64,000 nt of DNA from Eledone cirrhosa (taxonomy: Eukaryota). Shown here piece by piece: positions 1,812 to 63,693 of this stretch; within the stretch, counting starts at the first letter, position 1; every line of letters starts with the position of its first letter. The stretch is taken from the NCBI GenBank assembly GCA_964016885.1, contig OZ024743.1, positions 197,656,001-197,720,000 on the forward strand. Direction: 5' to 3'. The notes below the pieces were generated by a model. That model was not told the origin of the DNA and did no database searches. It saw only the letters and a list, made by a program, of their open reading frames with translations. The translations under genes were made by a program, and so were the position numbers.

Positions 1812-1960
1812 AATATATATATTCATTCATTCATACATAAACTTACCCACCTACCTAGGTACCAACCTACATCCCTACCTACATACATACAAGCATACAT
1901 ACACACATACATACAAACATAATACATACATACATACATAAATATATACATACATACATA

Positions 1961-2019
1961 CATGATGGCTGCCCCCTCGTTATCGAGTATGGCCATTGCA
2001 CAATAAAAAAAAAAAAAAA

Positions 2020-2085
<66 letters not shown>

Positions 2086-2115
2086 AAAAAAAAAAAAAAA
2101 AAAAAAAAGGAAAAA

Positions 2116-2148
<33 letters not shown>

Positions 2149-2270
2149 TATACATATATATATATATACACATATATATACACACACACATACATACACA
2201 TACATACATATATACACACACACATACATACACATACACTCACACATATATACACACATACATTAATAAC

Positions 2271-2322
<52 letters not shown>

Positions 2323-2401
2323 GCAATAATAATAATAACGACAACAACAATAATAATATACATATTCATATATATATACACACACACGCACGCACATAAG
2401 C

Positions 2402-2439
<38 letters not shown>

Positions 2440-5400
2440 GATAGCAACTAACAGTGCTGCGATCGAATGTGGCTTTTTAGCCCAGCCAATGATCTAAAAT
2501 GTCTTGCACAGAGTCGGCAACCAAAACATTTACTGGGAATAGTCGGATGTGGTTGGAGTTCGTGTACTTTTGCATGTCGCTTGAGTCCTCCTGCTGATTT
2601 ACATTCTCTACCACATGTTTGGCAAGCATGATGAGTAGCATCTCCAACAGCAGCCTGGTAGTCAACCACTGGTCTTACTTTATGACTGCGAAGATGACTT
2701 TCGAGTCCAGCTTTGCTTAGGCAGAGTCTCGCACAGACGCTGCATGTCAGAAACATAGGAGGACCCTCGCCGTCTGGAAGTGCAACAGCAATACCCTTCC
2801 TCACGTCCCGCTTTACTTTCTCGTGTGCGATTCGAGATGCCTCAAAGGCAACTTTTCCCTCATATACAGTCTTTCTCCATTTATTACGATCAGCAGCAAT
2901 ATTTTCCCATGTATCAGCAGAGATGTTAGCGTCTTTCAGAGAGGCTTTCAAGGAATCCTTATACCTCTTTTTTGGTTTATGTGGCGGTCGTTTTCCTTTA
3001 ACCAACTCTCCATAGAAGAGTTGTTTTGGTATTCTAGAATCCTTCATCCTGGCAAGGTGACCACTCCAACGGAGTCGCTGCTTAAACACAAGAGCTTCTA
3101 TACTGTCACACATAGAGCTTTCCAAAATCTCGACATCACTGATGTGGTCCCTCCAGCGAACGCCATGTATCCGTCTGAGACACATCTGATGGAAACGCTC
3201 CAATTGCTCAAGGTGGCGTCGATATGTGACCCAGGTCTCGCAGGCATAAAGAAGACAAGAGAGTACACATGCCCTGTACACCTTTACCTTTGTCCTCCTG
3301 CATATGTCTCGCCGACCCCAGAGTCGCCTTTCTAGCTTTCCGAAAGCATCACTTGCTTTCCTAATCCTAAGTGAGATTTCACCGTCAAGGTTGCCGTATC
3401 GATTGACAGTGCTTCCCAGGTAGACAAACTGATCAACCACTCCAAGTCGTTTGCCATACACATAGATGTTTGGTTCAGTGTACTGCCTACCAGGTGCAGG
3501 TTGGTACATGACGACGGTTTTCTTGAGACTGACAGTCAAACCCAGGGCAGTGCAAGCGTCAGAAAATACATTCAAAATGTGCTGCATATCACTCTCTGTG
3601 TGCGCTACAAGATCGCAATCATCTGCATACAAGAGGTCTCTTATGACTGATGTAAATACTTTTGTCTTCGCAGCAAAGCGCCTGATGTTAAATATGCTGC
3701 CTGAGGTTCGATATCGGATGTAAACACCATGCTCGCAATTCCTGAATGCAACACAGAAAACCATTGCAAAGTATATGGCAAACAGGGTCGGTGCTGGAAT
3801 ATCCCCCTGTTTCACTCCATTTTTTACTGAGATAGGCTCCGACATGTTACCTCCGACATTAACCCAAGCCTTCATGTCGTCATGGAAATACCTAACTAAA
3901 GCAAGGAACTTATCAGGGCAACCAAGTTTCTGGAGAACCTTCCATAATGCATCTCTGTTGACAGTATCGAAAGCCTTTGTCAGATCGACAAAAACCTGAT
4001 ACAGATCCAAGCCCTGTTCAATGCACTTCTCCTGGAGCTGTCTAGCTGAGAAGATCATATCAGTAGTGCCGCGTCCAACACGAAAACCAGATTGACTTTC
4101 AGGAAGGACACAATCTGCAATGTGTGTCAGCAGACGGTCCAGAAGCACCCTACATAAAACTTTCCCCACGACAGAAAGCAATGATATACCTCTGTAGTTC
4201 CCACAATCATTCCTGTTACCCTTACCCTTGTACAAGACCACCATTACTGCATCTCTCCAGTCCTCAGGCACGGATTCATTAGCCCATATCCTTCCAAACA
4301 GAGAGTGAAGATGTTGCAGGAGTCTCTCACCACCATATTGTAGGAGCTCAGCATGTATGCCATCCATACCTGGAGATCTTCCACTGTTCAGCTTCGAAAT
4401 AGCCACTGCAACCTCCACAAGTGTCGGAGGTTCTGCGAGAGCTACTTTCACAGGACTTTCCGGAATGAGATTGAGGAAATCTTCACTGACGACAGACGGC
4501 TGATTCAAAAGATCATCAAAGTGCTCTCGCCACCTTCGTAGAATTCCCTGTGAGTCACGAAGAAGTTCTTTGCCATCCTTGCTGCGAATCGGTGTCACCA
4601 GAGAAGAAGACGGTCCATAAACCTCACGCAAGAGACTGTACAACAGCTTTGTGTTATTGCAATCAGACGCAGTTTGTATCTCACCAGCCTTCTCACTCCA
4701 CCACTGATCCTTCATCTGAGAAAGACTCCGCCTAACACGTGATTTTACATCCCTGAGCTCCTCATGCAACGTATTCCTCTCCTGTGGTTTTGCCGTCAAG
4801 TAGCGTGACAGAGCGCGCCTCTTATCAGCCAACAAGTCATCTATATGCACATCTTTCTCATTAAACCAGTCCTGATGTTTTCTCTGCACCAATCCCAGAA
4901 CACGTCTGCCTACATCATAAACCGACTTTTTAAGGGTCGGCCAATCCTCACCAAGATCTGCAGCCTGCATCTCTTCTTCCAATGTCCTCTTCACATTTTT
5001 ATCCTTAAGACGAGCAGCATTCAATCTTTTGGGCAGGGCAACACCAGGAGCCCGGATTTTACGTTTGGTGATTAGATTCACTTTTGCGCGTACCAGGCGG
5101 TGGTCCGTCCAGCACTCAGCTCCACGAAGAACTCGAACACACTGCACATCCTGTCTGTCACGCATCCTGACTAGGACGTAGTCCAAAAGATGCCATTCCT
5201 TAGATGCAGGATGCATCCATGTGGTCTTGAATTTGTTCTTTTGTTGGAACATGGTGTTGGTAACACACAGATCCAGCTCCTCACACATCTGCAGCAAGAG
5301 CATACCATTGCTGTTACACTTTCCCACCCCATGCCTTCCGATTACATTCCATGTGTTAAAATCCCTACCCACTCTAGCATTAAAGTCACCAAGCACGATG

Positions 5401-6040
5401 ACTTTGTCTGCCTGAGGGATATTTCTTAAAACACCTTTCAAGGCATGGTAAAAGGACAGTTTTTCTTCATCGACAGAATTCATAGTTGGAGCATACACAC
5501 TCACCAGGGTAGCATATCTTCCCTTGTCCAGCGGAACTCTCATGGACATAAGACGCTCACTAATCCCCACTGGGAATTCTTCTAATTTATTCACCAGTAC
5601 AGTCTTAACAGCAAATCCTACCCCAGCCTCTCTTCTGGTTCCTTCATCTCTTCCTTTCCAGAAGAATGTATATTCTCCACAAAATTCCGTAAGATGACCA
5701 TCTCCAGCTAACCTCGTCTCAGACAAAGCCACGATGTCAAGATCGTAACGTCGAAGCTCCTTTGCAACAAGAGCGGTCCTTCGTTCAGGACGCTCCAAAG
5801 AATCCCTGTCAAGCAGCGTCCGTACGTTCCAGCAGCCAAGACTAAATGCCCTGTTTGGCTCTATTACAATGGCACGATGACGGGCGGGCCCAGGTTGTGA
5901 TAACTTGGGGCCCCTGCCCTTATTGCCAATGATCTTTTTTTGTTCCAGAACCCAAATTGGCAATTATCTCGTTTACATTGTTCTGGAACATCATTGAATT
6001 GGAAAAAAAAAAAAAAAAGAAAAAAAAAAAAGTAATAATA

Positions 6041-6075
<35 letters not shown>

Positions 6076-6380
6076 ACACTATTAATAATTATTAATGCAC
6101 TCGTGCAATGCCTGTGCGTGACGAATATTTTTAAAGTGAGGAAAGACTGTGCACTGAACCAATCCCACTCTCTGAGCGACAGTAGCTATAACCCGAAAAG
6201 AAGAAAAGATCAACATCATCGGTAACTACTGAGCCGCAGGTTTTATATCGGAGTTAACCCAGTTTCCTGAGATGCCTTCTCCTAGAAGAATACCCTGACA
6301 TGGGCTAGGGGTTCTTCACTCCCAGTGGTTTAACTGCGCGATCGGGCATTCAGCCCGATTATTTCTATGTCCCCGCGCAA
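1961..6380 (-). mobile_element. RTE-clade LINE, near full length
   Basis: Single APE-RT ORF. The 5' UTR segment (6100-6350) is shared with 37927-38165. The 3' tail tggccatactcgataacgagggggcagccatc runs into (ATGT)n. Confidence 0.95.
2448..5963 (-). CDS. RTE ORF: AP endonuclease + reverse transcriptase + three C-terminal C2H2 zinc fingers (1171 aa, uninterrupted)
   Basis: WNVRTL, LSETR, GDFNARVG, TDHRLV (APE); DLTKAFD, GVKQG, YADD (RT); CSVC..HLRSH, CQTC..HAKVH, CRLC..HIRSQH. No in-frame ATG at the start. Confidence 0.95.
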   Translation of the reverse strand: MPIWVLEQKKIIGNKGRGPKLSQPGPARHRAIVIEPNRAFSLGCWNVRTLLDRDSLERPERRTALVAKELRRYDLDIVALSETRLAGDGHLTEFCGEYTFFWKGRDEGTRREAGVGFAVKTVLVNKLEEFPVGISERLMSMRVPLDKGRYATLVSVYAPTMNSVDEEKLSFYHALKGVLRNIPQADKVIVLGDFNARVGRDFNTWNVIGRHGVGKCNSNGMLLLQMCEELDLCVTNTMFQQKNKFKTTWMHPASKEWHLLDYVLVRMRDRQDVQCVRVLRGAECWTDHRLVRAKVNLITKRKIRAPGVALPKRLNAARLKDKNVKRTLEEEMQAADLGEDWPTLKKSVYDVGRRVLGLVQRKHQDWFNEKDVHIDDLLADKRRALSRYLTAKPQERNTLHEELRDVKSRVRRSLSQMKDQWWSEKAGEIQTASDCNNTKLLYSLLREVYGPSSSLVTPIRSKDGKELLRDSQGILRRWREHFDDLLNQPSVVSEDFLNLIPESPVKVALAEPPTLVEVAVAISKLNSGRSPGMDGIHAELLQYGGERLLQHLHSLFGRIWANESVPEDWRDAVMVVLYKGKGNRNDCGNYRGISLLSVVGKVLCRVLLDRLLTHIADCVLPESQSGFRVGRGTTDMIFSARQLQEKCIEQGLDLYQVFVDLTKAFDTVNRDALWKVLQKLGCPDKFLALVRYFHDDMKAWVNVGGNMSEPISVKNGVKQGDIPAPTLFAIYFAMVFCVAFRNCEHGVYIRYRTSGSIFNIRRFAAKTKVFTSVIRDLLYADDCDLVAHTESDMQHILNVFSDACTALGLTVSLKKTVVMYQPAPGRQYTEPNIYVYGKRLGVVDQFVYLGSTVNRYGNLDGEISLRIRKASDAFGKLERRLWGRRDICRRTKVKVYRACVLSCLLYACETWVTYRRHLEQLERFHQMCLRRIHGVRWRDHISDVEILESSMCDSIEALVFKQRLRWSGHLARMKDSRIPKQLFYGELVKGKRPPHKPKKRYKDSLKASLKDANISADTWENIAADRNKWRKTVYEGKVAFEASRIAHEKVKRDVRKGIAVALPDGEGPPMFLTCSVCARLCLSKAGLESHLRSHKVRPVVDYQAAVGDATHHACQTCGRECKSAGGLKRHAKVHELQPHPTIPSKCFGCRLCARHFRSLAGLKSHIRSQHC

Positions 6381-8265: not shown

Positions 8266-11200
8266 ATGTTTTCTCTTTCTCTTAATTTCGGGTATATTTT
8301 TTTGACCGGCCACCTTCCTGGTGGCAAGGTTGTAAAAGAAAAGAAATTGTCATCCCTTGAATCGCAAGAATGTTTTGCAAATTTTGAAGGTGCCAGCTAT
8401 CGCAGCCATTTGTAGACTATGAATTAGGGAGCTGCGCTTTTTGTCCGCAAATCCAAGTTCAGTCATACTTTGGTCCAAGCGGGTTGGTATATAACCCGTA
8501 GCACCAATAATGATGGGTATGAAGCTAAAGGTGTATCTTGGATACTGGATTTGTAAATTCCTCATCAATGGTCCGTAGATGTCCTCCTTCTCCGGTATTT
8601 TTCTGACAACGTTTACATCAAGTGGGCAGCTGATCTCCACAACAGAACACGTTTTCAATGTGTGGTCCCAAACTACAATATCAGGCCGGTTGTGCTTTAA
8701 TTTGGTGGCAGTTTTTATTTTCAGGTTCCACCAGTATTCCTTAGTGACATCTGTCTCAATATATTCTTCCTCGTTTGTTGTTAATTTTGTTTTCCGAAGT
8801 GCGTTCCAGATGGTTCTAGCTATCCCATCGTGTCTCATGGGGAGGTAGTAGCGTACATTCTTTCGCAGCTGGTAGTAGGTACATTCTTTCGCAGCTGGCA
8901 ACAATGTGGCTTACATCCTCGATCTTTGTTTTACATAGCCTACATTTATTGTCAGCTGCTGGCTCTCCTCGTTTGTGCAGCAGATATTTGGTAGGGAGTT
9001 CTTGTTCCTGTATTGCACAGAGATATCCCTCAAGGTGTGATATCATAAACTTGTCGGAACTCCATGCCAGGCTTTTTGAGTGGTTTATCCCCTCTATGGT
9101 CTGTGTTTTACGCCTCAAGTATCCATGCACAACTTTTTCTGTAAATTGGTCAATTTTTTTATCTTGTTTGAACATTGAATAGGATCTTCCGATTTCTCTG
9201 GGTGAGAGATTTATATCAGGCTTTATTCCATATCTCTCCTCCAGATCAGTCGCTATTCTAATGATATTTCTTTTTTCATGCTCATAAACCTGGGCAAGAT
9301 GGTTGCCAACCTTTTTCCTCTGTTGAAGGTGTTGCTTCAGTGTTACTATCCGGGTCTCAAATGTTGTTAATATTGACTTTAGACCCCGGCCACCTTCCTT
9401 GCGTGAGAAGTATAGCCTATCCACATCACCATTGATGTTAAAGTTCCCAGTAACACTGAGAAGTTTTCGAGTTCTAACATCCATCTCACTTAGTTCTTGC
9501 AATGACCAGTTCAGTAGGCCAAATGTTGGCGTTAGAATTGGCACAGCATAAGTATTGTGGGCAATGTATTTGTTGTATGCTGACAGTTCTGATGACCATA
9601 TTTTCTTTACTCTTCTGAGGTATTCAGTTCTGGTTCTCTCCTTATTTATGGGTCCATCATATCTGACATTCTCATCCTGTCCAAGATATCTGTAGTTGTC
9701 ACCTGACTGCAGAGGTTGTATTGTCAGGCCGTTCATCTCTAGATTTCTGGAGGAGGGCACAGCTCTTCCACGTTTTACTGCCAAATATGCACACTTGGAC
9801 TCACCAAATTTCATTTTGATGTCGGTTGAAAATTGTGTAATGAGGTCCAATTGTTTCTTGATGTCATTGATATTTGGCCCATACAACTTCAGGTCATCAA
9901 CAAAGAAAAGATGGGAGATACTTCTGGGCCCACTTCTTTGTCCACCTTGTTTCCTAAGTAGGTAAGATAGTGGATTCAGTGAGAGAACGAAGAGTAGCAC
10001 TGACAAGCTATCACCCTGAAAGATGCCCTTCTGGTAATGTATCTTATCAGTCTTAACCTGCTCCTTCTCACCTCTAAGGATCAAATTGGTGTACCAGATC
10101 TTGGTCAGGCGTTCAACAGCAGCTACCAATGGTTGTGGGACTTTAGCTAACTGTAAAGCCTTAATAATCCACCCATGAGGTACACTATCAAATGCTTTTT
10201 GATAGTCCAGCCACACGACAGTCATGTTTCTGCGATTCTTTGTTGTTTTTTCCTGAATCATTTTGTTAGTTAGTAGGTGATCTATGCAACCCCACACCTC
10301 CCTCTTTCCACCAGCTTGCTCAGGTGTTATGATGTTGTTGGTAGCACAGTGATCCTGTAAGAACAGGTTAAGGCACCCAGTATATAATTTATACATGATG
10401 TTTTGGCAGGCAATTGGGCGGTAAGTTTTAGCAAGGGTGGTTTGGCTATTTTGGGGAATGAGGAGAGTAGTGGCATTTGATAACCATCTGGGCAGTTCTT
10501 GTGTGCCCTTAATGGTTTCTGTAAACAACCGTATGAGATCTTGCCGATAGAAAGTGAAATTCTTCAACCAGTATCCTGTAATGAGGTCTGGGCCTGGCGA
10601 TTTCCTATTCGACATTTTCTGTAGAGCTGTTTCCAGTATTGACCCATCTATGTCATATTGTTTTGTCTGAACATGTTGGCAGTAGTCCTGTTCCAGTTCT
10701 TTTAGCCAATTAGCTTGTCTGTTGAATCCGTCATCCGTTTCCCATACAGATCTCCAGTAGCTCTCAACCTGTTCTTTTGAACGGGTGTCGTTTACAGGGA
10801 TTGAGCTTTTGCCACCGAAGCTGCGATAAACTGATTTAGGATCTCTGGCAAACAATCTATTTAGCACTTGTCGTTTATGTGCTGTTGACTTATATTTTAG
10901 TCTTTCTGTTGTAGCTGTGAGTTGTTGTTTCAACTGGTGTAATTTGGAGTTCAAAGTTTTAAATTTTGTATCTACAAATCGTCTCTCTAACTTTTTCTTT
11001 AGGTCTTCCTGGTGTCGTGTGAAGTTGCTCTCTATGTTGCATTTCATAACGACTGCGATGTGTGAGATACTTCGTCTCAGGGACAAAATTTTGGTTTTTA
11101 AATTTCGCATCCACACTGGTTCAGGCTTTCTGTTTGTATCTTGATTGCATGGTTTTAGATGTGTGTTATATGATAGCAATGTGACAGCTGAAACATATAA

Positions 11201-11627
11201 CAAAACATTAAGCGTTTCAAATGTCGTTTCTACACCTTTAGATCGTATAGCCTTCAGATAATTGCCAGCTATTTCGTTCACCGCTTCCAATTCCAATTTA
11301 GTGGGTTCTTTACCGACTCTAGTGTTGTATGGTCTGTCACTCACATTAAGGCTGTGTATCTCTTGAAACATATCGTTCCATATCACTTGTAGGGTGCCCA
11401 CAAGTTTTTGGTGCTCTGTTTGTTCAGTAGAGTCATGAATTTCAACCTCGTTGTTGATGTGGTGACAATTACTACTAGAGTCAGCTGACCTTTCTCGCTG
11501 TTCTTCAGTGGAAGTGGGATGGATTTCAGCAAAATTGTTGGTGAGCTGTTCACTGTTAGATTTAGCTGGCCATTCTCTTTGTCTGTCAGTGGAGGTGGGG
11601 TGGTTGTCTACAAGGGCTGTATTTGTA
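8266..11627 (-). mobile_element. R4/Dong-like restriction-like-endonuclease non-LTR retrotransposon, 5' truncated
   Basis: RT followed by a CCHC knuckle and RHD/RPD/E..K endonuclease motifs. The 5' end abuts (CATA)n and the 3' UTR ends ...gaaaacata. Confidence 0.88.
8350..11401 (-). pseudogene. RT-RLE polyprotein with a frameshift at about 8853-8898
   Basis: DYQKAFDSVPH, GIFQGDSLS, FVDDLKLY, CRLC...HIVASC, then MRHD, NRPDIVV, EISCP in another frame. A 26-bp-period duplication lies at the break. Confidence 0.9.
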
Positions 11628-11707
11628 GTATGTATGTATGTATGTATGTATGTATGTATGTATGTATGTATGTATGTATGTATGTATGTATGTATGTATG
11701 TATGTAT

Positions 11708-12411
11708 GTGTCAGGTCACCAGTTGGTGCTACTGGTAACATGTATCCCAGTTTGTGTCAGGTCACCAGTTGGTGCTACTGGTAACATGTATCCCAGTTTG
11801 TGTCAGGTCACCAGTTGGTGCTACTGGTAACATGTATCCCAGTACAACCTGTCTCATGGTCGGGTCGTTGGCGACTAAACTGGCAACCCCACCAAGGTTT
11901 CTTGGTGAGGAGGGTGGCTTTGGACATCCTGCAGGACTAAAAACAAAACCTGTCAAAAGGCAAAGGGGCTCTTAAGAGTCAATAGCCATCCAAAATCACC
12001 GGGAGAGATGACCCCTTAGCCTTTGTCAAGGCAGAATTCTAGGAGAAGGAAAACTCTGATATAACACCTGCAACCCTGATGGTATCCAATGATGTTGAAT
12101 TGTTCTTCTTTTTGGTAAATATCATCTTGGTTAAGAGAGTGGGACTGGCTTTGTGCAGTGCCTTTGCTCACTATAAAAGCTTCACAGCACAGGCATTGCT
12201 TTATATCTGGAGATCTCTCTGCACTTGTCGTCACATGGTACCATGGGCCCAGCACTATGTGTCAATAATTGTCACAAGTGTAGTGTTTGTACCAGAGTTT
12301 TCAAGTCGTTGGCTGGACTAAAAAGTCACATTCGTTCAGCGCATTGGTAGGGGTTCTCCTACATGGATATAAAGTAGTGGCCGTACTCGAAAACGAGTTG
12401 GCAGCCACCAT
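11708..12411 (+). mobile_element. Non-autonomous bipartite RTE derivative, family A (46-bp 5' unit triplicated)
   Basis: RTE-type 5' UTR joined to the terminal zinc-finger codons and the RTE 3' tail. (TATG)n on both sides. Sister copy at 63088-63693. Confidence 0.85.
12243..12350 (+). CDS. Putative 35-aa single C2H2 zinc-finger micro-ORF (MGPALCVNNCHKCSVCTRVFKSLAGLKSHIRSAHW)
   Basis: Hand translation. accATGg start context. Homologous to the last RTE finger CRLCARHFRSLAGLKSHIRSQH. Translation is not shown. Confidence 0.4.
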   Translation: MGPALCVNNCHKCSVCTRVFKSLAGLKSHIRSAHW

Positions 12412-12447
12412 GTATGTATGTATGTATGTATGTATGTATGTATGTAT

Positions 12448-13617
12448 GTTTGTCTACCTGGGAAGCACTGTCAATCGATACAGAAACCTTGACAGTGAAA
12501 TCTCACTTAGGATTAGGAAAGCAAGTGATGCTTTCGGAAAGCTAGAAAGGCGACTCTGGGGTCGGCGAGACATATGCAGGAGGACAAAGGTAAAGGTGTA
12601 CAGGGCATGTGTGCTCTCTTGTCTTCTTTATGCCTACGAGACCTGGGTCACATATCGACACCACCTTAAGCAATTGGAGCGTTTCCATCAGATGTGTCTC
12701 AGACGGATCCATGGCATTCACTGGAGGGACCACATCAGTGATGTCGAGATTTTGGAAAGCTCTATGTGTGACAGTATAGAAGCTCTTGTGCTTAAGCAAC
12801 GACTCCGCTGGAGTGGTCACCTTGCCAGGATGAAGGATTCTAGAATACCAAAACAACTCTTTTATGGAGAGTTGGTTAAAGGAAAACGACCGCCACATAA
12901 ACCAAAAAAGAGGTATAAGGATTCCTTGAAAGCCTCTCTGAAAGACGCTAACATCTCTGCTGATACATGGGAGAATATTGCTGCTGATCGTAATAAATGG
13001 AGAAAGACTGTATATGAGGGAAAAGTTGCCTTGGAGGCATCTCGAATCGCATACGAGAAAGTAAAGCGGGATGTGAGGAAGGGCATTGCTGTTGCACTTC
13101 TAGACGGCGAGGGTCCTCCTATAGTGCTGACATGCAGCGTATGTGCGAGACTCTGCCTAAGCAAAGCTGGACTCGAAAGTCATCTTCGCAGTCATAAAGT
13201 AAGACCAGTGGTTGACTACCAGGCTGCTGTTGGAGATGCTACTCATCATGCTTGCCAAACATGTGGTAGGGAATGTAAATCAGCAGGAGGGCTCAAGCGA
13301 CATGCAAAAGTACACGAACTCCAACCATAGCCGACTATTCCCAGTAAATGTTTTGGTTGCCGACTCTGTGCAAGACATTTTAGATCATTGGCTGGGCTAA
13401 AAAGCCACATTCGATCGCAGCGCTGTTAGTTGCTATCGTGTGTGTGTGTGTAGATATGCTTATGTGTGTGCGTGTGTGTGTATATATATATATGTATATG
13501 TATATTATTATTGTTGTTGTCGTTATTATTATTGTTGTTATTATTATTATTATTATTATTATTGTTATTAATGTATGTGTGTGTGTGAGTATGTGTGTGT
13601 GTGTGTATATATGTATG

Positions 13618-13648
<31 letters not shown>

Positions 13649-13772
13649 TTCTTTTTTTTTTTATTTTTATTTTCTTTTTATTTATTTATTTATCATTATT
13701 ATTATTATTTTTTTTTTCTTTTCTTTCTCCTCGTGCAATGGCCATACTCGATAACGAGGGGGCAGCCATCAT
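12448..13772 (+). mobile_element. 5'-truncated copy of the RTE LINE
   Basis: Near-identical to 1961-3430 reverse-complemented. Premature stop at 13328-13330. (TATG)n at both ends. Confidence 0.95.
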
Positions 13773-13790
13773 GTATGTATGTATGTATGT

Positions 13791-14260
13791 TTCAAGTCGG
13801 GTCGTTGGTGACTAAACCGACAACCCCATCTAGCTAGCTTGGTGAGGAGGGTGATATTTGGACACCCCGCGGGATGAAATACAAGACCCGGCAAAGGGCA
13901 GAGGAACTCAGTAGAGTCTACGGCTATCCAAATAGTAGTTTTTTAAAATTATTTTTTAAAAAATTTTTATCACCTGGTAGTGAAATGCCCCCAGTTGTTG
14001 TCACAACACCTTTCTAGGGAAGCTCTGAAAAAAAAAACCCTTCGGCTTCGGAAGCATCCGATGATATTGACCAGTTCTCTCCTTTTCGGGTAATGTTTCG
14101 ATGCTGAGAGAGTGGATTGGTCGAGTGCATGGCCTTTCGCCCTTTAAAAAACATACAAAGTACAGGCATTGCTTGTGCAGGATATGTAGCCCAAAAGTGC
14201 ACCAAACTCTATAATCTGACAAGCGATTACAATACTCTTAGCAGAGTTTACTGCCATCAT
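13791..14260 (+). mobile_element. Bipartite RTE derivative, family B
   Basis: Shares leader hairpins, the gagagtggattgg...acaggcattgc block and a hairpin-gccatc(atgt)n tail with families A and D. Confidence 0.8.
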
Positions 14261-14340
14261 GTATGTATGTATGTATGTATGTATGTATGTATGTATGTAT
14301 GTATGTATGTATGTATGTATGTATGTATGTATGTATGTAT

Positions 14341-14626
14341 GTCACTCTGATATAAAACCTGCAACTCCGTTGGCAACGAATGATGTAGACCAGTTCTTCT
14401 TTTTGTGTAAATGTATCCGAGGTTCAGAGAGTGGGTTTGGCCTTGTGCAAAGTCCTTCCTCACTTAAAAAGCTCCAGGCACAGACATCACTTGATATGTG
14501 ACATTGTTTGTAATACATGGAATGGCTGGCCATATGCATGTCCCTAGCAGGACTAAAAAACATGTCCTTGATGCTCATGGTTAAGTATCAAGCGATGGAA
14601 TTAAACAAAACGAGTTGCAGCCATTA
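14341..14626 (+). mobile_element. Bipartite RTE derivative, family C, 5' truncated
   Basis: ctctgatataaaacctgc...gagagtgggtttgg block, decayed SLAGLK..H..AH finger, aacgagttgcagccat tail. Confidence 0.75.
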
Positions 14627-14630
14627 TTTG

Positions 14631-14675
<45 letters not shown>

Positions 14676-14867
14676 GGGGTGTGTGCGACCCCCCCAAGGC
14701 GCCTCTTCTCTATTGAGGACTTTGTTATAAATTTTATTTTTTGTTATATTTTATTTTATTTTTATATATTGTTATTGCCTCCTCCTTATTGAGGACGCCT
14801 TGTTTTGTAAACTCCCCCCATTGTACTTGTCCCACTTTTGATGCCCTGGTGGCAAATAAAAGAAACA

Positions 14868-14868: not shown

Positions 14869-14943
<75 letters not shown>

Positions 14944-14956
14944 GAAGGAAGGAAAA

Positions 14957-16720
14957 ATGAAAATAAAAACGGACGAATCTGCGGAGGAAAAATTAAATGA
15001 CGAAAACAACGAAAAAAAAAAATTTGAAAAATTGCATGACAATACTAATAACACAAACAAAGACACAACAAACAAAAAAATAACAGTTGAAAATAACATC
15101 ATATCAGAAAACAAAGCAGACGACAAGATTTCTTTTGCACAGAAAACAAAGAAATCTTTGACTTATATAGCGGAAAACATTTCAGATGTGGTACGAAGGA
15201 TCACGGACGCAAAACAATACATAAGTGAAGGTGAGAATGGTATTTTATTGGTAAAAATGCCTCAAGAATTCACGAAAGACATTGAAAGCCGAACGGTCAA
15301 GTTTCGGACCATCAACAACAGTACAAAAAAACCTGAACAGCCTTCTCAAGCAGATATCAAAACAGTACTCGCAGAAGTACTGAATGAAACAACTTTCATA
15401 AGAAAAGACAGACTGTATGGAAGCCTAGCAATTATCATGAAGAACGAATCGGCGGCAAAAAAATGTGCTTTGTCACCGATTCGTTCGAAAAATTTCACCT
15501 TTTATCCATCTTATATGGGAAAAAAAACTCAACGCATATGGCTGGATGCAATGATGCCAGATGTGGACTACTGCTGGCTCATAGCTGGCTTCATCGATCC
15601 AGTGAATGACAACGTGATTTCCATTGGGAAAACCACAGGCAATGCGTTCAGTGGAACAGGTATAGAGCTGGTAGTACAAATGAAGCCTGAACGCATCGCC
15701 CAAATACCCGACAGAATCCTATTAGAGGACCACGGGTATATAAACATTAGCGTGGAGGGGAGAAGGCCGTCCTGCCATATCTGTGCAGGCAGAGGGCACC
15801 TGAAGGCCGCTTGTCCACAACTCAACAAAAAGAAAACTCTGCTACCAACACCAGCTCCACCACCACCACCACAACAGATAAACAAACAACAAAACTCAGT
15901 CCCACCCAACCCGTCCCTCAGTAACACCACAACACCACCACAACACAAACAGTCACAACACATTACCCCAAAACAAAATACAGGCCCACCCAACCTCTCA
16001 CTCAATAAAACAACACAACCACCGCAGACACAACACACAACACAGTCTAACATAGTGACATCCATCTCCCCCACAAAGAAAACCAACACGGAAACATTAC
16101 CAGCAAACATACCTCTTCCCTCCAACACTGAAGATAACCCAACGAATTCGGAGGAAGAAACGGAGTCCTTCAGACAGATTAAAAGGAAAAAAAGAAAACA
16201 TGTGCAAAACACACAAGGACAAACAACCCCCACCCAAATCGCAACACAATCTAACAAAACAGAAAACACCCCTCCAGCAACAAACAAAACCAAACCTGCC
16301 CCTCCCCTCTTCGAAACACTCACACCATCGGAAAAAAAGACATTACACTATACTTACATCAACAGAAACAATAATAAATTAAATGAACTCATATACAATA
16401 ATCCTTCGGTACAAACCGAAGGTGTAAACTTTGTTTCATCAGAAAACCACCCACATTTAAAACTAATAAAAATCCCAATGAACCTCTACCAAAAACTAAA
16501 AAAGGATTTTAAGGAGGACGTAGGACCACCCTCTGTCAAACCCATAAACCGCGTCCTACTAAAAAGCTTTCCCCCTCCCCTTCCCCTCCCCAACACAACT
16601 CCAAACACCCCAACCCCACCACACACCGACGACCCCACACCACCACAAGACACCCCTTCACCCAACACCCCCGACCCCATGGAAGTCGTGCAACCCGAAC
16701 CCCGGGAAGCGGAAAGGTAG
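14957..16720 (+). CDS. Tx1-like ORF1 (gag-like, CCHC knuckle, Pro/Thr/Gln-rich linker)
   Basis: CHICAGRGHLKAAC knuckle. The upstream extension to 14741 in the ORF track is microsatellite read-through. Confidence 0.85.
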   Translation: MKIKTDESAEEKLNDENNEKKKFEKLHDNTNNTNKDTTNKKITVENNIISENKADDKISFAQKTKKSLTYIAENISDVVRRITDAKQYISEGENGILLVKMPQEFTKDIESRTVKFRTINNSTKKPEQPSQADIKTVLAEVLNETTFIRKDRLYGSLAIIMKNESAAKKCALSPIRSKNFTFYPSYMGKKTQRIWLDAMMPDVDYCWLIAGFIDPVNDNVISIGKTTGNAFSGTGIELVVQMKPERIAQIPDRILLEDHGYINISVEGRRPSCHICAGRGHLKAACPQLNKKKTLLPTPAPPPPPQQINKQQNSVPPNPSLSNTTTPPQHKQSQHITPKQNTGPPNLSLNKTTQPPQTQHTTQSNIVTSISPTKKTNTETLPANIPLPSNTEDNPTNSEEETESFRQIKRKKRKHVQNTQGQTTPTQIATQSNKTENTPPATNKTKPAPPLFETLTPSEKKTLHYTYINRNNNKLNELIYNNPSVQTEGVNFVSSENHPHLKLIKIPMNLYQKLKKDFKEDVGPPSVKPINRVLLKSFPPPLPLPNTTPNTPTPPHTDDPTPPQDTPSPNTPDPMEVVQPEPREAER

Positions 16721-16753
16721 GTCTCTACACTCTCCTTTGGCTCTGCCGCCCAC

Positions 16754-19700
16754 ATGGATGTGTTAAGAGTAGGATGTTTGAATGCACGTGGCCTGGGCTC
16801 AACTTGGAAGCAAGCAAAGCTTCTAAATGACCTCAGGTCATGTAGTATAAATGTAATGGTTATCTGTGAGACTCGAATCAGCGTCATGCGGCAGCTGGCC
16901 CCCACCTTCGATGACTTTGAGGTGCATGCATCTCTCTGTCAACCTGGAGGTGGGGGTGGGGTTGTCGTGCTGCTGCAAAAACACCTGGGTCTTGCCGTAC
17001 AGGTTGTGCACTCGGACCCGGAGGGTCGTTTGTTGGTGCTAGACGTTGGCAGTAGTGAAAGTGCGGCCTTGAGACTGGTCGCCGTCTACTCCCCTTTCGG
17101 AGCTGAACGGCCCGACTTCTTCCAGCGTTTGGAGACTTTTCTGGGAACGTCGCGTTCCCTGCTTCTAGCGGGGGATTGGAATGACATCCTGGATGCACGT
17201 TGGGACTATGCAGGAGCATGTCCTAATAGAGGGGGGTGTAACAGCCTCAAGGGGTTACTCGACCGTTTTAACTTGGTCGATAGATATCGACTAGATTTTC
17301 CAACTGTGCCTACCTGGACTTGGAGAAACCACAGTGGTCAATCTAGATCGTACTTAGATAGATTCTTAGTTAGAAGTAAGGATAGGGACATATTAAGCTG
17401 TCCAGAAATGCGCACGGTTGGCTACACGGATCACAAATTAGTGACCTGCGTGGTCAATCTCGAGAAAACACATAGACAGGGTCCCGGTTACTGGAAACTT
17501 AATTTGTCTTTACCGGCAAAAGAGACTTACAGAAACCGGATTAGCAGATTAGTTAAGGAGAGGTTGACGGGTGCAATCGTCAACAACCGATGGTGGGCAT
17601 CTCTCAAAAGAGAGATTAGAACAGAATCAATAAGTTATAGCAAGATGTTAGCTGCCAATAGGAATAGAAACGAGAAAGAATTAACAGGTAAATTAGAAGA
17701 GGCAATCAAGAGCGAAGATGTGGCCAGAGTGCTGGCATCGAGGACGGCCTTGAACCAGTTTTTCGATGCAAAGCATGAAGGCTGCGTCATTCGAAGTAAA
17801 ATACGTGCTCTAGGTAATGAGGGGGCCAAAGCCGTTGGATGGGCCCGCGTGACAGAAGCTAAAAGTGGAAATCGATCCACCATCCGGTCGTTGCAAGACG
17901 AAGATGGACGAGTGATCCGGGAGCCTAAGCAGATGTGCGAGGCCTTTCAAAAGCACTTTGCCCGATTGTTCGGGGGAGGCGAGGGTCCGGGCCGGGGCGT
18001 GGATTTCGGTCCATACCTCGACGGCCTGCCGCGTCTCTCGAACAAAGAGGCAGAGTCCTGCGAGGGACCAATCTCGGCTGATGAGATCGGAGATGCGCTG
18101 AGCCAATGCAGCAGACGCAAATCTCCAGGTCTCGATGGTATACCTTACGAACTTTATTTAGCAATGCCGGTCTTCTTCTCTGAACTCCTCGAAGCGGTCT
18201 ACTGCAATTGGCAGCAGAACGGGAGAATTCCTTGTTCTGTAGCCAAGGGCGTAGTCACGCTGGTGAGGAAGGACGAGAACAAGGGGGATAGTATAAATAA
18301 TTTTCGGCCCATAACCCTGCTAAACACAGAGTTAAAGATTTTGGCCAAGGTGTTAGCAAAGAGGTTGGCGCTTGTCGTGGGCGGCCTGGTGGGAGATGCG
18401 CAGACATGTGCTATCCCATCCAGGTCCATTCACGATAACCTCCACCTCATGCGATACATCATAGAGAGGGTTGGCAACAAACCCGGCTTCGGTGGGGCCC
18501 TGATCAACTTGGATCAGTCTAAGGCCTTCGATAGGGTCGACCATGGTTACCTGGATGCGGTGCTAGCGGCGGCTGGGTTCGGTCCTGTTTTCAGAGGCTG
18601 GATCACTGCCCTACATAGCAACCACATCTGTTCTAGGATCAAGGTGAACGGCTACCTTTCGAAGCCGTTCGAAATCACACGATCCATTCGACAGGGGTGC
18701 CCTCTCTCCTCCCTTCTGTACGTATTGACTCTCGAGCCTTTACTGAGGAAGTTGGAGTTGTTGCAGGGTATCCCCCTGGAACCAGGATTGAGCAAAGCGG
18801 TGTCGGCCTACGCCGATGACGTAACAGTAATGGTATCAACCGACTCGGAGATCGAGGCGATCGGTACCTTACTGGAGGAGTACGAAAGGTTGTCAGGAGC
18901 GAAACTGAACCGGGAAAAATCCATCGGACTGCAACTCGGAACGTGGAGAAGCAAACCGATGCCTCCTGACGGTGTCGTCGGACACTGGACGGAGGGCCCG
19001 GTAAAGTTGCTTGGGGTCTGGTTTGGACCGGACCTCCAGGTGGAAAAGAACTGGAACGAGGTTACGAACAAGGTGTTTGCACTAACCCAGAAATGGGCCA
19101 AGTGTAAGCTGTCCCTAAAAGGCCGGGCGGAGGTGGCGAACATTTACATAGCGTCCGTCACTTACTACCGCCTGACTGTCGTGCCTTGCCCTAAGGAAAC
19201 ACTCACCACCATGGAACGCATGCTCTTCCAATTTCTTTGGAAGAAGCGTCCTCCTATGGTGAGAAGATCCATCTGCTGCCAACAACCTTCGAAAGGAGGG
19301 CTGGGGATGCCGTGGTTGATGATGCGTAGGCACGCATTAAGGCTACGGCACCTACAGGTATTCCTCACTGGTCAACCGGTGTGGGCTCCGTTCGTGAAAC
19401 GAGCCTTTCCGAGACTCGTCTCACTCACCGAGCTACAGTCCTGGGTCAAGCAAAGATCCGGAAAACTGGGAGACTGGCACACTGAGTGTGCTCAGGCGCT
19501 CAGGGCTCTCTGGCAAGCGGGCCGGACCATCGGTGGAGAATCCACCTCATCATTCTATAGAGGGCTGGTGGCTAGCAGGGGCGATGACACCCTTGGAGAG
19601 TCGCTGGACATGGAAGAAGACGAACTGGCCAGCCTGTTCGGTAGGACTTTCGGCCCAGGACCAATGGACAACTTCCAGAAGTCACTGGCCTGGCAGTGCT

Positions 19701-19972
19701 ACCGAGGGGCTCTACCCGTTCGAGAGAGGCTCTACAGACACGGGCGCCCGGGCAGGGATCCCTCAAAAAAGATTTGCCCTAGATGCGTGCGTCACGAAGA
19801 AACCGTGGCGCACGCATTGGTGCAATGTCCGGGCGTGGCTGATCTGTGGGGCTACGCCGAACAACTGCTGTCGCGGGTGGCGCCGATTAAATTGACCGCC
19901 GAGTCCGTGATGACAATCAAACCGCCCCCCCCCTCTTCACAAAGGAAGCAAAGGCGGTTTTTCTGTGCGTAA
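16754..19972 (+). CDS. Tx1-like ORF2: APE + RT + CCHC; last ~80 aa (to 20193) are out of frame
   Basis: LNARGL, ICETR, GDWN, YLDRFL, TDHK; DQSKAFD, RQGCPLS, YADD; CPRC...HALVQC. PGYWKLN is typical of L1/Tx1. Confidence 0.93.
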   Translation: MDVLRVGCLNARGLGSTWKQAKLLNDLRSCSINVMVICETRISVMRQLAPTFDDFEVHASLCQPGGGGGVVVLLQKHLGLAVQVVHSDPEGRLLVLDVGSSESAALRLVAVYSPFGAERPDFFQRLETFLGTSRSLLLAGDWNDILDARWDYAGACPNRGGCNSLKGLLDRFNLVDRYRLDFPTVPTWTWRNHSGQSRSYLDRFLVRSKDRDILSCPEMRTVGYTDHKLVTCVVNLEKTHRQGPGYWKLNLSLPAKETYRNRISRLVKERLTGAIVNNRWWASLKREIRTESISYSKMLAANRNRNEKELTGKLEEAIKSEDVARVLASRTALNQFFDAKHEGCVIRSKIRALGNEGAKAVGWARVTEAKSGNRSTIRSLQDEDGRVIREPKQMCEAFQKHFARLFGGGEGPGRGVDFGPYLDGLPRLSNKEAESCEGPISADEIGDALSQCSRRKSPGLDGIPYELYLAMPVFFSELLEAVYCNWQQNGRIPCSVAKGVVTLVRKDENKGDSINNFRPITLLNTELKILAKVLAKRLALVVGGLVGDAQTCAIPSRSIHDNLHLMRYIIERVGNKPGFGGALINLDQSKAFDRVDHGYLDAVLAAAGFGPVFRGWITALHSNHICSRIKVNGYLSKPFEITRSIRQGCPLSSLLYVLTLEPLLRKLELLQGIPLEPGLSKAVSAYADDVTVMVSTDSEIEAIGTLLEEYERLSGAKLNREKSIGLQLGTWRSKPMPPDGVVGHWTEGPVKLLGVWFGPDLQVEKNWNEVTNKVFALTQKWAKCKLSLKGRAEVANIYIASVTYYRLTVVPCPKETLTTMERMLFQFLWKKRPPMVRRSICCQQPSKGGLGMPWLMMRRHALRLRHLQVFLTGQPVWAPFVKRAFPRLVSLTELQSWVKQRSGKLGDWHTECAQALRALWQAGRTIGGESTSSFYRGLVASRGDDTLGESLDMEEDELASLFGRTFGPGPMDNFQKSLAWQCYRGALPVRERLYRHGRPGRDPSKKICPRCVRHEETVAHALVQCPGVADLWGYAEQLLSRVAPIKLTAESVMTIKPPPPSSQRKQRRFFCA

Positions 19973-20407
19973 TAGCCATGTTGAAAGAGGTTGTTTGGTG
20001 GACACGATTGAAAGGTCTGAGGTCAGGCAACTTCCTCTCTGGCCATAGTCTGGTCTACTTCTTCCGATATCACTTCGGAAGAAGGATAAGAATGGAGAGA
20101 GAGGTGCTTGGCCACAGGCAGTTTTATGAAAGGTGGGTGATAGTGGCGAGAATGGCTCGTGTAAATGGGCCTTCTCTGTATACCATCCTGTAGGTAAAGA
20201 AGTAAAAGAGAGGGGAGCACCTTCTCCATGTGCTCCCCGGGCAAAGGATTGCACACTTTTTCGGGGGTGTGTGCAACCCCCATCACGTCCCCTCCCTTTT
20301 GAGGTTATTTTCGATTATTTTCATGTTACACCCTTTTTACTCGATTATATGTAAACTCCCCCTTTGTATTTGTCCCTTCTTTTTATGCCTTTATGGTAAA
20401 TAAAGAA

Positions 20408-20477
<70 letters not shown>

Positions 20478-20479
20478 AT

Positions 20480-26118: not shown

Positions 26119-26119
<1 letters not shown>
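20480..26119 (+). mobile_element. Tx1-like LINE copy 2, with 5' UTR; ORF1 and ORF2 frameshifted
   Basis: Nearly identical to copy 1. ORF1 has an internal deletion near 21915 and ORF2 a 1-bp deletion near 24022. Flanked by (TATC)n. Confidence 0.93.
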
Positions 26120-26172
<53 letters not shown>

Positions 26173-26179
26173 ATATCTG

Positions 26180-26234
<55 letters not shown>

Positions 26235-32010: not shown

Positions 32011-32125
32011 TATCTATCTATCTATCTATTATTAATTTTTTATTTTCATATACCTGTATGTAAACTCCCCATTTGTATTTGTCCCCTTCTGTTGTGCCCT
32101 TGTGGCTAATAAAGAAATTTATCTG

Positions 32126-32158
<33 letters not shown>

Positions 32159-32964
32159 ATTTATTCCTTTCTATCTACCTATCTTTATACCAATGAGCGA
32201 ATGAGCGAATTAATGAGTGTGTCTGCGCGTGTGTGTATGTGCGTGTCTGCATAAGCGGTTATGTCTGTATGCAAATGCATCTATCCACCATTGGTATACG
32301 TATGTAACAATAAACGATATTTTATGTCAAGCGTTAAAGCAAAGAAACCACGTGACAAAATTAAGACAAGGGAGCAAATGAGTCTCAAATATCAAATAGG
32401 CTTTGAAATTTACAAAGAAACAAAGATAAATGATAAAAAATAGATATAGGAAAGGGACTAGAAAGAAGAGAGGGAGTATCAAACTGTAGGATGTGAAAAA
32501 TTGGAAGATATGAGGTTAAAACGTGAGAGAGGGAGAGCGGGAAAAAAGAATAAAAAGATATAACTGGAAAGACGAGGGAGGATAATGAAAAAAGAAATGG
32601 GTGAAAAAAAAAAAAAATGAAGACAACAGAAACATAGAGTGTGCAGTTTAGATTGATTATCTGATACGTAGAACGACATATGTAAGAACACATACACACA
32701 TAGATACATACACACACACACACTCAAACACTCATACATATACACACATGCATACACACACACAAAAGCACACACACACACATATATATGTATGTATAAA
32801 TATATATATGATATATACATTCATATATATATATATAATATATATATATATATGTGTGTGTGTGTGCGTGCGAATTAGATATTAAGTCAGTTAACCAAGA
32901 TAGGTAGATAGAAATAGATATGCATCCGTGTTTGTGTGTGTGTATATATATATATGTATGTATG

Positions 32965-36966: not shown

Positions 36967-37706
36967 CTCTAAGATATGGGTGGCACTACTTTTGGGAGAT
37001 AGAGCTATGTCGAATTCGGTAGGATTTGAACTCGGCACGTAGATGCACATAACTACATATCTCACTCGAAAGACAAAAAACAAAACAAGACAAAAAAAAA
37101 GAAACGAAACAAAAACAAAAACAAAAACAAACAGTCAATTAAAGTTGCGGAGCTAATGTTACTTAACAATGATTTGTCCATACGATAAAACGACCACATT
37201 CAGTCAATGGTGTAGTATTGGTCTATTTATTTATTCCAACTAGCTTCCTTTAACAGCTGGCTTCGATTTAACCCAAGAGAAAAGAATTTCGGTAACTTTA
37301 GCACTCTATCAAGTAATAACAACAAGTGCCGTTGTCAATATATGCCCATATAGATTGGTGTAAGTAAACAATGTTATGTGGGCGATATACACTGTTCTTA
37401 GATCAGTAAACAGACTAGAGGTTTAGTTACGTACATCTATTTAAGTACGACGAAATGTATGTGTATATATAATGTGTGTACGTATGTGTGACTAGTTCAG
37501 TGTAAGGATGTGTATATTCTATGTTGTTTTGTAAATTTTATGAAAGTCTCTGCGTGCGAGTGTTTGTACGTTATCATACATCGCACAAGGGAAGTGCTAG
37601 AGATACTAATATTATAGACTGAAAAAGAAAGAGAAACAGGGAACAATAATTGAGAAATAACATATCTATTAGACTATTTATATACATAGAATATGTATGT
37701 ATGTAT

Positions 37707-38232: not shown

Positions 38233-38240
<8 letters not shown>
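37707..38240 (+). mobile_element. Bipartite derivative (family D) of the RTE at 1961-6380
   Basis: 37927-38180 closely matches the 5' UTR of the autonomous copy and is fused directly to its 3' tail gtgcaatggccatactcgataac.agggggcagccatc. Confidence 0.9.
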
Positions 38241-62935: not shown

Positions 62936-63087
62936 TTAACAATTGCACAATTATTTTATTATTAATAATAATTATCTGAAACTTTGCATGAATATAAACA
63001 TTTTAAGCATAATAAAGATGCATTAATAAATATGTATGTATGTTTGTATGTATGTATGTGTATATATGTATGTATATATATGTATAT

Positions 63088-63693
63088 GTCAGGTCACCAG
63101 TTGGTGCTACTGGTAACATGTATCCCAGTACAACCTGTCTCATGGTCGGGTGGCGACTAAACTGGCAACCCCACTAAGGTTTCTTGGTGAGGAGGGTGAC
63201 TTTGGACATCCTGCAGGACTAAAAACAAAACCTGTCAAAGAGCAAAGGAGCTCTTAAGAGTCAATGGCCATCCAAAATCATCGGGAGAGATGACCCCTTA
63301 GCCTTTGTCAAGGCAGAATTCTAGGAGAAGGAAAACTCTGATATAACACCTGCAACTCTGATGGTATCCAATGATGTTGACTTGTTCTTCTTTTTGGTAA
63401 ATATCATCTTGGTTAAGAGAGTGGGACTGGCTTTGTGCAGTGCCTTTGCTCACTATAAAAGCTTCACGACACAAGCATTGCTTTATATCTGGAGATCTCT
63501 CTGCACTTGTCATCACAGGGTACAATGGGCCCAGCACTATCTGTCAATAATTGTCACAAGTGTAGTGTTTGTACCAGAGTTTTCAAGTCACTGGCTGGAC
63601 TAAAAAGTCACACCCGTTCAGCACATTGGTAGGGGTTCTCCTACATGGATATAAAGTAGTGGCCGTACTCGAAAACGAGTTGGCAGCCACCAT
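63088..63693 (+). mobile_element. Bipartite RTE derivative, family A copy 2; micro-ORF 63525-63632 intact
   Basis: Highly similar to 11801-12411 and preceded by (TATG)-like repeat. Confidence 0.88.

What the first reader, a model, noticed from the sequence alone, without database searches (positions are those of the whole stretch)
12243..12350. Non-autonomous RTE derivative retaining an ATG-initiated 35-aa single zinc-finger ORF
Seen: family A discards the entire APE-RT but keeps the last C2H2 finger behind an accATGg / acaATGg start. It is intact in both copies (12243-12350 and 63525-63632). Three codons differ synonymously (tcg/tca, ttg/ctg, gcg/gca) and two non-synonymously (C6S, I30T), with all zinc ligands unchanged. 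Families B and C carry decayed finger remnants at the same position. Inference: either a SINE-like element encoding a micro-protein (decoy or regulator of the three-finger RTE protein) or a cis-required RNA segment. Two copies cannot establish selection, and two of the changes are CpG-type.
Basis: partly seen in the sequence, partly recalled or inferred. Interest (0 to 1): 0.72.

Follow-up and report, generated by a model that had tools for sequence, protein, structure and literature searches.

The report
Leftover gene tail in jumping element
The tiny zinc-finger reading frame is the leftover last 35 codons of a jumping gene that lost its middle, its apparent start codon is an internal methionine of the parent protein, and copies that broke the frame or the finger still spread, so it is likely an ordinary passenger rather than a new micro-protein.

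Summary
The ORF is real in both copies and is the majority state of a ~610-bp family (about 38,000 copies estimated). I found the autonomous parent, a ~4.05-kb three-finger RTE. The family is its first 432 nt joined at a 2-3-nt microhomology to its last ~180 nt; ~3.45 kb is gone, including the real start codon. The ATG is an internal Met between fingers 2 and 3, present in 64 of 75 parent copies; its 'Kozak' context is Thr-Met-Gly codons. A frameshifted form has 690 exact matches (about 9 expected) and a form lacking the last zinc ligand 1,014 (about 26 expected). Sister families keep half a finger or none. dN/dS is about 1, but that test also missed selection in the parent, so it is weak. Translation is untested. 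The scan noted bipartite RTE fragments in this genome before, not this ORF. Verdict: new member of a known kind (bipartite non-autonomous RTE); low interest.

The parts
11801..12410 (+). Family A copy 1: bipartite non-autonomous RTE element, ~610 bp, between (TGTA)n tracts
   Evidence: Fixed 5' and 3' ends across genomic copies; 95.9% identical to copy 2
11801..12232 (+). 5' part: positions 1-432 of the parent RTE's 5' UTR, ending 51 nt before the parent's start codon
   Evidence: 88-98% identity to the 5' ends of near-full-length parent copies such as L261, L262, L264, L266, L283, L285, L299, L300, L308, L318
12230..12232 (+). Deletion junction, 2-3 nt shared by both parent breakpoints; about 3.35-3.47 kb removed
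   Evidence: Both blast pieces overlap at element positions 430-432; sizes from 10 parent copies
12230..12410 (+). 3' part: last ~180 nt of the parent (end of finger 2, linker, finger 3, stop, 3' UTR)
   Evidence: Majorities of family A and of 75 parent-type copies differ at 2 of 179 positions
12243..12350 (+). 35-codon frame = last 35 codons of the parent ORF; ATG is an internal linker Met; C2H2 finger at residues 11-34
   Evidence: ATG in 64 of 75 parent-type copies, in frame with RT and fingers 1-2
12351..12410 (+). 3' UTR with predicted terminal hairpin (about 12377-12408), followed by (TGTA)n; likely the recognition signal for the RTE protein
   Evidence: Identical tail in parent copies; hairpin predicted, z -1.59, 16 of 200 shuffles as good; 22,598 exact matches of a 34-nt piece
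63087..63692 (+). Family A copy 2; frame at 63525-63632
1946..6340 (-). Related but distinct autonomous three-finger RTE ('W'; open frame 2451-5963), not the parent of family A
   Evidence: APE, RT and C2H2 hits; 5' UTR only ~68% identical to family A; many copies with frames over 1,200 aa
14344..14625 (+). Older short RTE derivative that keeps only the second half of the last finger
   Evidence: Majority of 25 copies
13790..14260 (+). Short derivative of a third RTE ('X'): 5' UTR joined to 3' UTR, no finger codons
37700..38240 (+). Short derivative of W: 5' UTR plus ~45 nt of 3' end, no finger codons
   Evidence: 90% identity to 6077-6340 and tail match to 1963-2005

Best explanation
The element is a three-finger RTE retrotransposon that lost ~3.45 kb of its middle, and the 35-codon frame is the parent's last 35 codons, likely carried along as a passenger with no job of its own. 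Shown: the junction, the loss of the true start codon, the internal origin of the ATG, and the spread of broken forms. Inferred: the deletion arose once, by a template jump or end-joining at a 2-3-nt microhomology. The RNA is then likely made from the retained 5' UTR and copied in trans by an RTE protein that recognises the 3' hairpin and (TGTA)n tail. The finger was kept because the parent's 3' UTR is only ~60 nt, so a breakpoint 180 nt from the end falls in coding sequence. It still looks intact because the family is young (1.9% from its majority) and inherited a finger that selection had kept intact in the autonomous lineage.
For: Parent found: 113 exact matches of a 20-nt motif. Of 60 upstream stretches fetched, 12 hold the family-A 5' part directly before APE, RT and three fingers. 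ATG present in 64 of 75 parent-type copies as an internal Met; true start 51 nt past the breakpoint in 10 of 10 copies measured. Frameshift form 690 against 14,148 intact matches, about 9 expected from the local deletion rate; H34L 1,014 against 11,038, about 26 expected. H34L copies form a stepwise lineage with linked changes in and outside the frame; all four linked codon changes are non-synonymous, and the lineage is younger (1.1% against 1.9%). In 91 tail-selected copies, 67 keep the frame (79% expected if neutral, p 0.19) and 47 keep all four ligands (69% expected, p 0.0006, i.e. fewer). All 18 indel events in the frame shift it. Sister families keep half a finger or none. Between autonomous families the finger is conserved through synonymous change (parent vs W: 7 identical, 8 synonymous, 7 non-synonymous codons of 22). 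The ATG is the ninth in the element.
Against: The frame is the majority state and is intact in about three quarters of copies. The within-family dN/dS of about 1 (0.94, p 0.80 for distinct variants; 1.5 counting every difference) is weak: the same kind of test gave 0.78 (p 0.07) to above 1 on the parent's own ORF. The 28-nt duplication in half of the H34L lineage keeps an open ATG frame of 47 codons (14 of 14 by script, a 15th by eye, of 30); chance gives this one time in three. Broken lineages exclude a need in cis but not a benefit supplied in trans by intact copies. The frameshift form shows only partial linkage to other changes, so some of the 690 may be recurrent deletions. Expression and translation were not tested.
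Confidence: 0.87

Rival explanations
1. The frame is translated at a low level from some copies but the peptide has no selected effect (translational noise from a strong-context ATG behind an RTE 5' UTR).
For: accATGg context; the ATG lies about where the parent's own start lay (element position 443 against about 484); tens of thousands of intact copies.
Against: Eight ATGs lie upstream, one 8 nt before it and out of frame. No expression data either way.
Confidence: 0.07
2. The element encodes a functional single-finger micro-protein that acts in trans as a decoy or regulator of the three-finger RTE protein.
For: Frame and four ligands intact in the majority; passes the Pfam cut-off; the duplication lineage stays in frame; family A outnumbers its parent by two orders of magnitude, and no sampled parent copy has a whole open frame.
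Against: ATG and context are inherited codons. No excess of synonymous change at any sharing threshold. A young lineage lost H34 and spread. The segment varies more than the 5' UTR. Sister families amplified without it.
Confidence: 0.04
3. The finger-coding segment is kept because the RNA there is needed in cis for recognition by the RTE protein.
For: It is present in nearly all non-truncated copies and lies next to the 3' signal.
Against: More shared variants than the 5' part; no fold signal; lineages with a 2-nt deletion or a 28-nt duplication in it spread; related families move with 45-60 nt of 3' end.
Confidence: 0.02

Closest known systems
Bipartite non-autonomous RTE LINEs (RTESINE1/2, WALLSI3, MAR4_MD, RTE-N2_Lch, Bov-A); Kojima 2018, PMC5786205 (parts 1-4 of 5 read)
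   Same: 5' end plus 3' end of an RTE joined by internal deletion; no small-RNA head; microsatellite tail; shares its 3' end with the autonomous partner.
   Different: The examples described there keep 5' and 3' UTR pieces (RTE-N2_Lch keeps 214 + 70 bp). Family A keeps ~120 nt of coding sequence, a whole finger and an internal Met. I saw no example with a retained finger in the text read.
R2 SIDEs (short internally deleted elements), Eickbush and Eickbush 2012, PMC3414825 (passages read)
   Same: Non-autonomous non-LTR element formed by internal deletion; template jump or recombination proposed as the cause.
   Different: R2 clade, rDNA-specific, old and 19-36% diverged from the parent; family A is young (96-97% identical to its parent) and dispersed in microsatellites.
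Protein-coding non-autonomous LINEs HeT-A, HAL1, Ag-Sponge (as summarised in PMC5786205)
   Same: Non-autonomous LINE derivatives that retain an ORF.
   Different: They keep a whole ORF1 with its own start codon. Family A lost the start codon and keeps only a C-terminal 35-codon stub with no sign of constraint.
RTE-2_OV of Octopus vulgaris, PMC9115989 (passages read)
   Same: RTE LINE with endonuclease, RT and a C2H2 finger, which the paper calls relatively rare in RTE elements.
   Different: Autonomous, one finger reported, 3' UTR ~600 nt. Its sequence was not compared here, so identity with W, X or the parent is untested.

Membership tests
Bipartite non-autonomous RTE LINE | 5' part derived from the 5' end of an RTE | tested here: met
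   Positions 1-432 match parent 5' ends at 88-98%
Bipartite non-autonomous RTE LINE | 3' part derived from the extreme 3' end of the same RTE, with microsatellite tail | tested here: met
   Positions 430-609 match parent 3' ends, mostly 92-98%; (TGTA)n follows
Bipartite non-autonomous RTE LINE | No endonuclease or RT; partner is an RTE-type APE-RT element | tested here: met
   0 of 99 tail-selected copies continue into RT; parent aligns at ~55-60% over APE-RT to the window RTE, which has Pfam APE and RT hits. Clade assigned by similarity and recalled architecture, not by a tree.
Bipartite non-autonomous RTE LINE | Amplified by retrotransposition (dispersed, fixed 3' end, variable 5' truncation) | tested here: met
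   22,598 exact tail matches on both strands; variable 5' starts with a common 3' end
Bipartite non-autonomous RTE LINE | Transcribed from the LINE's own 5' region and mobilised in trans | not testable with these tools
   Inferred; no RNA holder listed
Classical SINE (tRNA, 5S or 7SL head) | Small-RNA-derived Pol III head | tested here: not met
   No tRNA, no Rfam match at gathering score; the 5' end is the parent's own 5' end
Protein-coding non-autonomous LINE (HeT-A, HAL1 type) | Retains a complete ORF with its native start codon | tested here: not met
   Native start deleted; ATG is an internal Met
Protein-coding non-autonomous LINE (HeT-A, HAL1 type) | ORF under purifying selection in source lineages | tested here: inconclusive
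   dN/dS about 1 or above, but the positive control had little power; broken lineages amplified
C2H2 zinc finger | C-x2-C-x12-H-x3/4-H with Pfam zf-C2H2 score above cut-off | tested here: met
   28.2 bits against 25.2
C2H2 zinc finger | Peptide is made and binds zinc | not testable with these tools
   No expression or biochemical data

The most novel reading that the evidence does not exclude
An internal deletion turned an internal Met of an RTE protein into a start codon, giving ~25,000 dispersed copies of a translated single-finger peptide that competes with the three-finger RTE proteins and damps their activity: a retrotransposon counterpart of the truncated repressors known from DNA transposons (comparison recalled).
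Probability: 0.04. Interest if true: 0.7.

Novelty: new member of a known kind. Interest (0 to 1): 0.13.

Why it matters
As found, it is a clean worked example of how a bipartite RTE derivative arises: parent, both breakpoints and three sister families with different breakpoints all lie in one genome. It is also a caution that an intact small ORF with a good start context in a young repeat can be pure inheritance. For annotation, tens of thousands of such copies could be miscalled as single-finger C2H2 genes. It would matter more only if the peptide proved to be translated and to regulate RTE activity, which the evidence does not favour.

Tried and rejected
1) That the ATG is the parent's own start fused in frame to the finger: rejected, the true start is deleted. 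2) That the window RTE W is the parent: rejected, 5' UTR ~68% identical and a different tail. RTE X, also checked, is the parent of 13790-14260, not of family A. 3) My early idea that an H-x3-H just upstream of the ATG was all finger-2 remnant: half wrong, the first His is 5' UTR sequence. 4) An extended imperfect repeat at the two breakpoints: not significant, 47 of 258 control windows scored as well. 5) Positive control for dN/dS in the parent: the versions were out of frame and are discarded; the corrected one did not detect selection in the parent ORF, so the test is weak. 6) Protein database search with the 49-aa in-frame stretch against longer proteins: 1 candidate, none scored; weak. 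7) Rfam: nothing at gathering score, no ribozyme family. 8) Sequencing runs: no RNA holder listed; the raw-read run X23 laid 0 reads and is no test. 9) Literature searches listed no paper on a finger-retaining RTE derivative; Repbase/Dfam entries and supplements (e.g. of PMC5786205, PMC13282606) were not seen and may already hold this family. PMC13282606 and PMC6007223: passages only. 10) No structure or complex prediction was run; a single canonical finger would add nothing to the question.

Full report
Observation. Both frames are as described: ATG, 35 codons, TAG, five differing codons, four zinc ligands unchanged, and a Pfam zf-C2H2 hit above cut-off. They lie in two copies of one ~610-bp element, 11801-12410 and 63087-63692, 95.9% identical. 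The host is probably an octopus-type cephalopod; that label comes from earlier AI notes and was not tested here.

The family. A 34-nt piece of the 3' tail has 22,598 exact matches in the 3.0-Gb genome and 0 for the reversed control. A 35-nt piece of the finger has 16,187, and 42 of 99 tail-selected copies hold it, which gives roughly 38,000 copies (this assumes independence, so it is rough). I fetched the first 100 tail matches on contig C1, chosen without regard to the ORF, and recovered 99 distinct copies. They share a 3' end, start at a fixed 5' end or are 5'-truncated, sit mostly in (TGTA)n or (TA)n tracts, and none continues upstream into RT. Mean divergence from the majority is 1.9%. The 35-codon frame is the majority state, with T30 and R35.

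Against the majority, copy 1 has L23 TTG (1 of 95 sampled copies), T30I (7 of 96) and R35W (6 of 97). Copy 2 has C6S (0 of 92), S22 TCA (6 of 95), T30 ACC (1 of 96), A33 GCA (3 of 96) and R35W. Two of the three synonymous differences are CpG decay and the third is nearly private. They say nothing about selection on source elements.

The parent. Assembled contigs of public runs laid on the element showed a recurrent loose end before position 12230. Its 20-nt motif has 113 exact matches in the genome. Most of the 30 loci shown are 5'-truncated copies of a three-finger RTE whose ORF runs through finger 2 into H-L-G-S-H-G-T-M-G-P and on through the same last finger, stop and tail (part of that output was cut). 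Of 60 upstream stretches fetched, 12 hold the family-A 5' part directly before APE, RT and the fingers, about 4.0-4.07 kb in all. Family A equals parent positions 1-432 joined to the last ~180 nt, with 2-3 nt shared at the junction; 3.35-3.47 kb is deleted in the 10 copies measured, and the parent's start codon lies 51 nt inside the deleted part in all 10. The ATG at 12243 is present in 64 of 75 parent-type copies as an internal Met of the finger 2-3 linker; its context is the codons Thr-Met-Gly. Over the shared 179 nt the two majorities differ at two sites, G6C and one synonymous site that is polymorphic in the parent. No sampled parent copy has one open frame throughout (longest pieces 863 and 451 aa), whereas the related window RTE W has many frames above 1,200 aa. 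Which protein moves family A today is not shown.

Selection tests. Among 91 copies that cover the ATG, 67 keep the frame and 47 also keep the four ligands. A neutral simulation with rates from the element's own 5' part expects 79% and 69%; the first is not different (p 0.19) and the second is lower than neutral (p 0.0006). dN/dS is 0.94 for distinct variants (57 non-synonymous + 1 stop against 23 synonymous, p 0.80) and 1.5 when every difference is counted. All 18 indel events in the frame shift it. Against this, the same style of test on the parent's last 440 codons gave 0.78 (p 0.07) for variants in two or more copies and about 1 or more at other thresholds, so within-family dN/dS has little power here and I give it little weight. 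Two earlier versions of that control were out of frame and are discarded.

Broken forms spread. Genome-wide, a 2-nt deletion at codon 5-6 has 690 exact matches against 14,148 for the intact form, with about 9 expected from the element's own 2-nt deletion rate. The first 30 have varied 5' ends and 28 distinct 5' flanks, though only partial linkage to other changes. H34L, which removes the last ligand, has 1,014 matches against 11,038, with about 26 expected. Its first 30 copies show linked changes: 430C in 23 of 29, V19G in 18 of 30, K12R in 15 of 29, P3L in 13 of 29, a 28-nt duplication in 15, and changes outside the frame. They are 1.1% from their own majority, so younger than the family. One result runs the other way: the duplication leaves an open 47-codon ATG frame in all 14 copies the script flagged, and a 15th by eye, a one-in-three chance event. 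These lineages show that neither frame nor finger is needed in cis. They do not exclude a benefit supplied in trans by intact copies.

The RNA alternative. In the 45 full-length copies the frame has 24 shared variants in 97 non-CpG sites against 31 in 398 for the 5' part (p 5e-5); singletons are also somewhat higher (p 0.015). The segment folds no better than shuffles (z -0.94), and the tail hairpin is only modestly stable (z -1.59). The constraint appears to lie in the 5' UTR and, by inference, the tail.

Sister families. Three other short RTE derivatives lie in the window. 37700-38240 is W's 5' UTR plus ~45 nt of 3' end. 13790-14260 comes from a third RTE, X, and joins the first two bases of X's start codon to the end of its stop codon. 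14344-14625 keeps only the second half of the last finger in the majority of 25 copies; its parent was not found. So four independent deletions kept a whole finger, half a finger, none and none. Between autonomous families the last finger is conserved through synonymous change (parent against W: 7 identical, 8 synonymous, 7 non-synonymous of 22 codons), which explains why the stub looks like a good finger.

Mechanism. Shown: structure, parent, breakpoints, origin of the ATG, spread of broken forms. Inferred: one deletion by template jump or end-joining; transcription from the retained 5' UTR; copying in trans by an RTE protein that reads the 3' hairpin and microsatellite tail. The last step follows the model for RTE-related retroposons in PMC6007223 (passages read). 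Translation is untested: the ATG is the ninth in the element, but the parent's own start sat behind the same leader.

Comparison with what is known. Kojima 2018 (PMC5786205; parts 1-4 of 5 read) describes bipartite non-autonomous LINEs made by internal deletion, names RTE as one of four clades that produce them, and separates them from forms that keep a whole ORF1. R2 SIDEs are the parallel case (PMC3414825; passages). A C2H2 finger in an octopus RTE is reported in PMC9115989 (passages). Four searches listed no paper on a derivative that keeps a finger-coding stub; repeat libraries and supplements were not seen.

Verdict. Observation largely right, interpretation as a micro-protein unlikely. 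A new member of a known kind; interest 0.13.

Noticed in passing
window 11709-11800: The first ~46 nt of copy 1 are present three times in tandem (starts 11709, 11755, 11801), probably repeated priming or slippage at the 5' junction.
   Followed up: no
L316 (G000:C5:42049600-42054400) and L275 (G000:C1:53936800-53941600): Chimeras of family A and its parent: L316 has an A-type junction followed by the parent's start codon and full ORF; L275 has A positions 1-443 joined to the parent's RT C-terminus. They suggest template switching between the two RNAs, or gene conversion.
   Followed up: partly
L235 (G000:C1:103909035-103912054): An independent, shorter internal deletion of the same parent: about 120 nt of 5' end joined inside finger 2. 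Seen once.
   Followed up: partly
window 13790-14260: This family's deletion removes the parent's ORF almost exactly, from the start codon to the stop codon.
   Followed up: partly
window 11620-14700: Five RTE-related insertions stacked head to tail, each landing in the (TGTA)n tail of another (family A, a 5'-truncated W at 12448-13788, and two or three short derivatives); the same stacking is common in fetched loci.
   Followed up: partly
window 1946-6340 (-): Young autonomous three-finger RTE with microsatellites in both UTRs; 150 scored matches at 98-100% over the last 122 aa, many in frames above 1,200 aa. The window copy appears to have a frameshift near its N-terminus (read).
   Followed up: partly
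window 14900-32200: Three tandem copies of a different LINE (APE-RT frames at 16721-19969, 22430-25680 and a 75%-identical copy at 28326-31857); two are 98.7% identical over 4.3 kb.
   Followed up: no
window 8353-11710 (-): Long open frame (964 aa stop to stop) with RT similarity and a downstream piece rich in conserved-looking motifs, perhaps a restriction-like endonuclease LINE.
   Followed up: no
runs X4-X20: The element is held by runs under many organism codes; in X5 a single contig at depth 14 differs from copy 1 at nine sites, the same number and kinds of change as the family majority. Trace DNA of the host in other samples would explain this; not examined.
   Followed up: no
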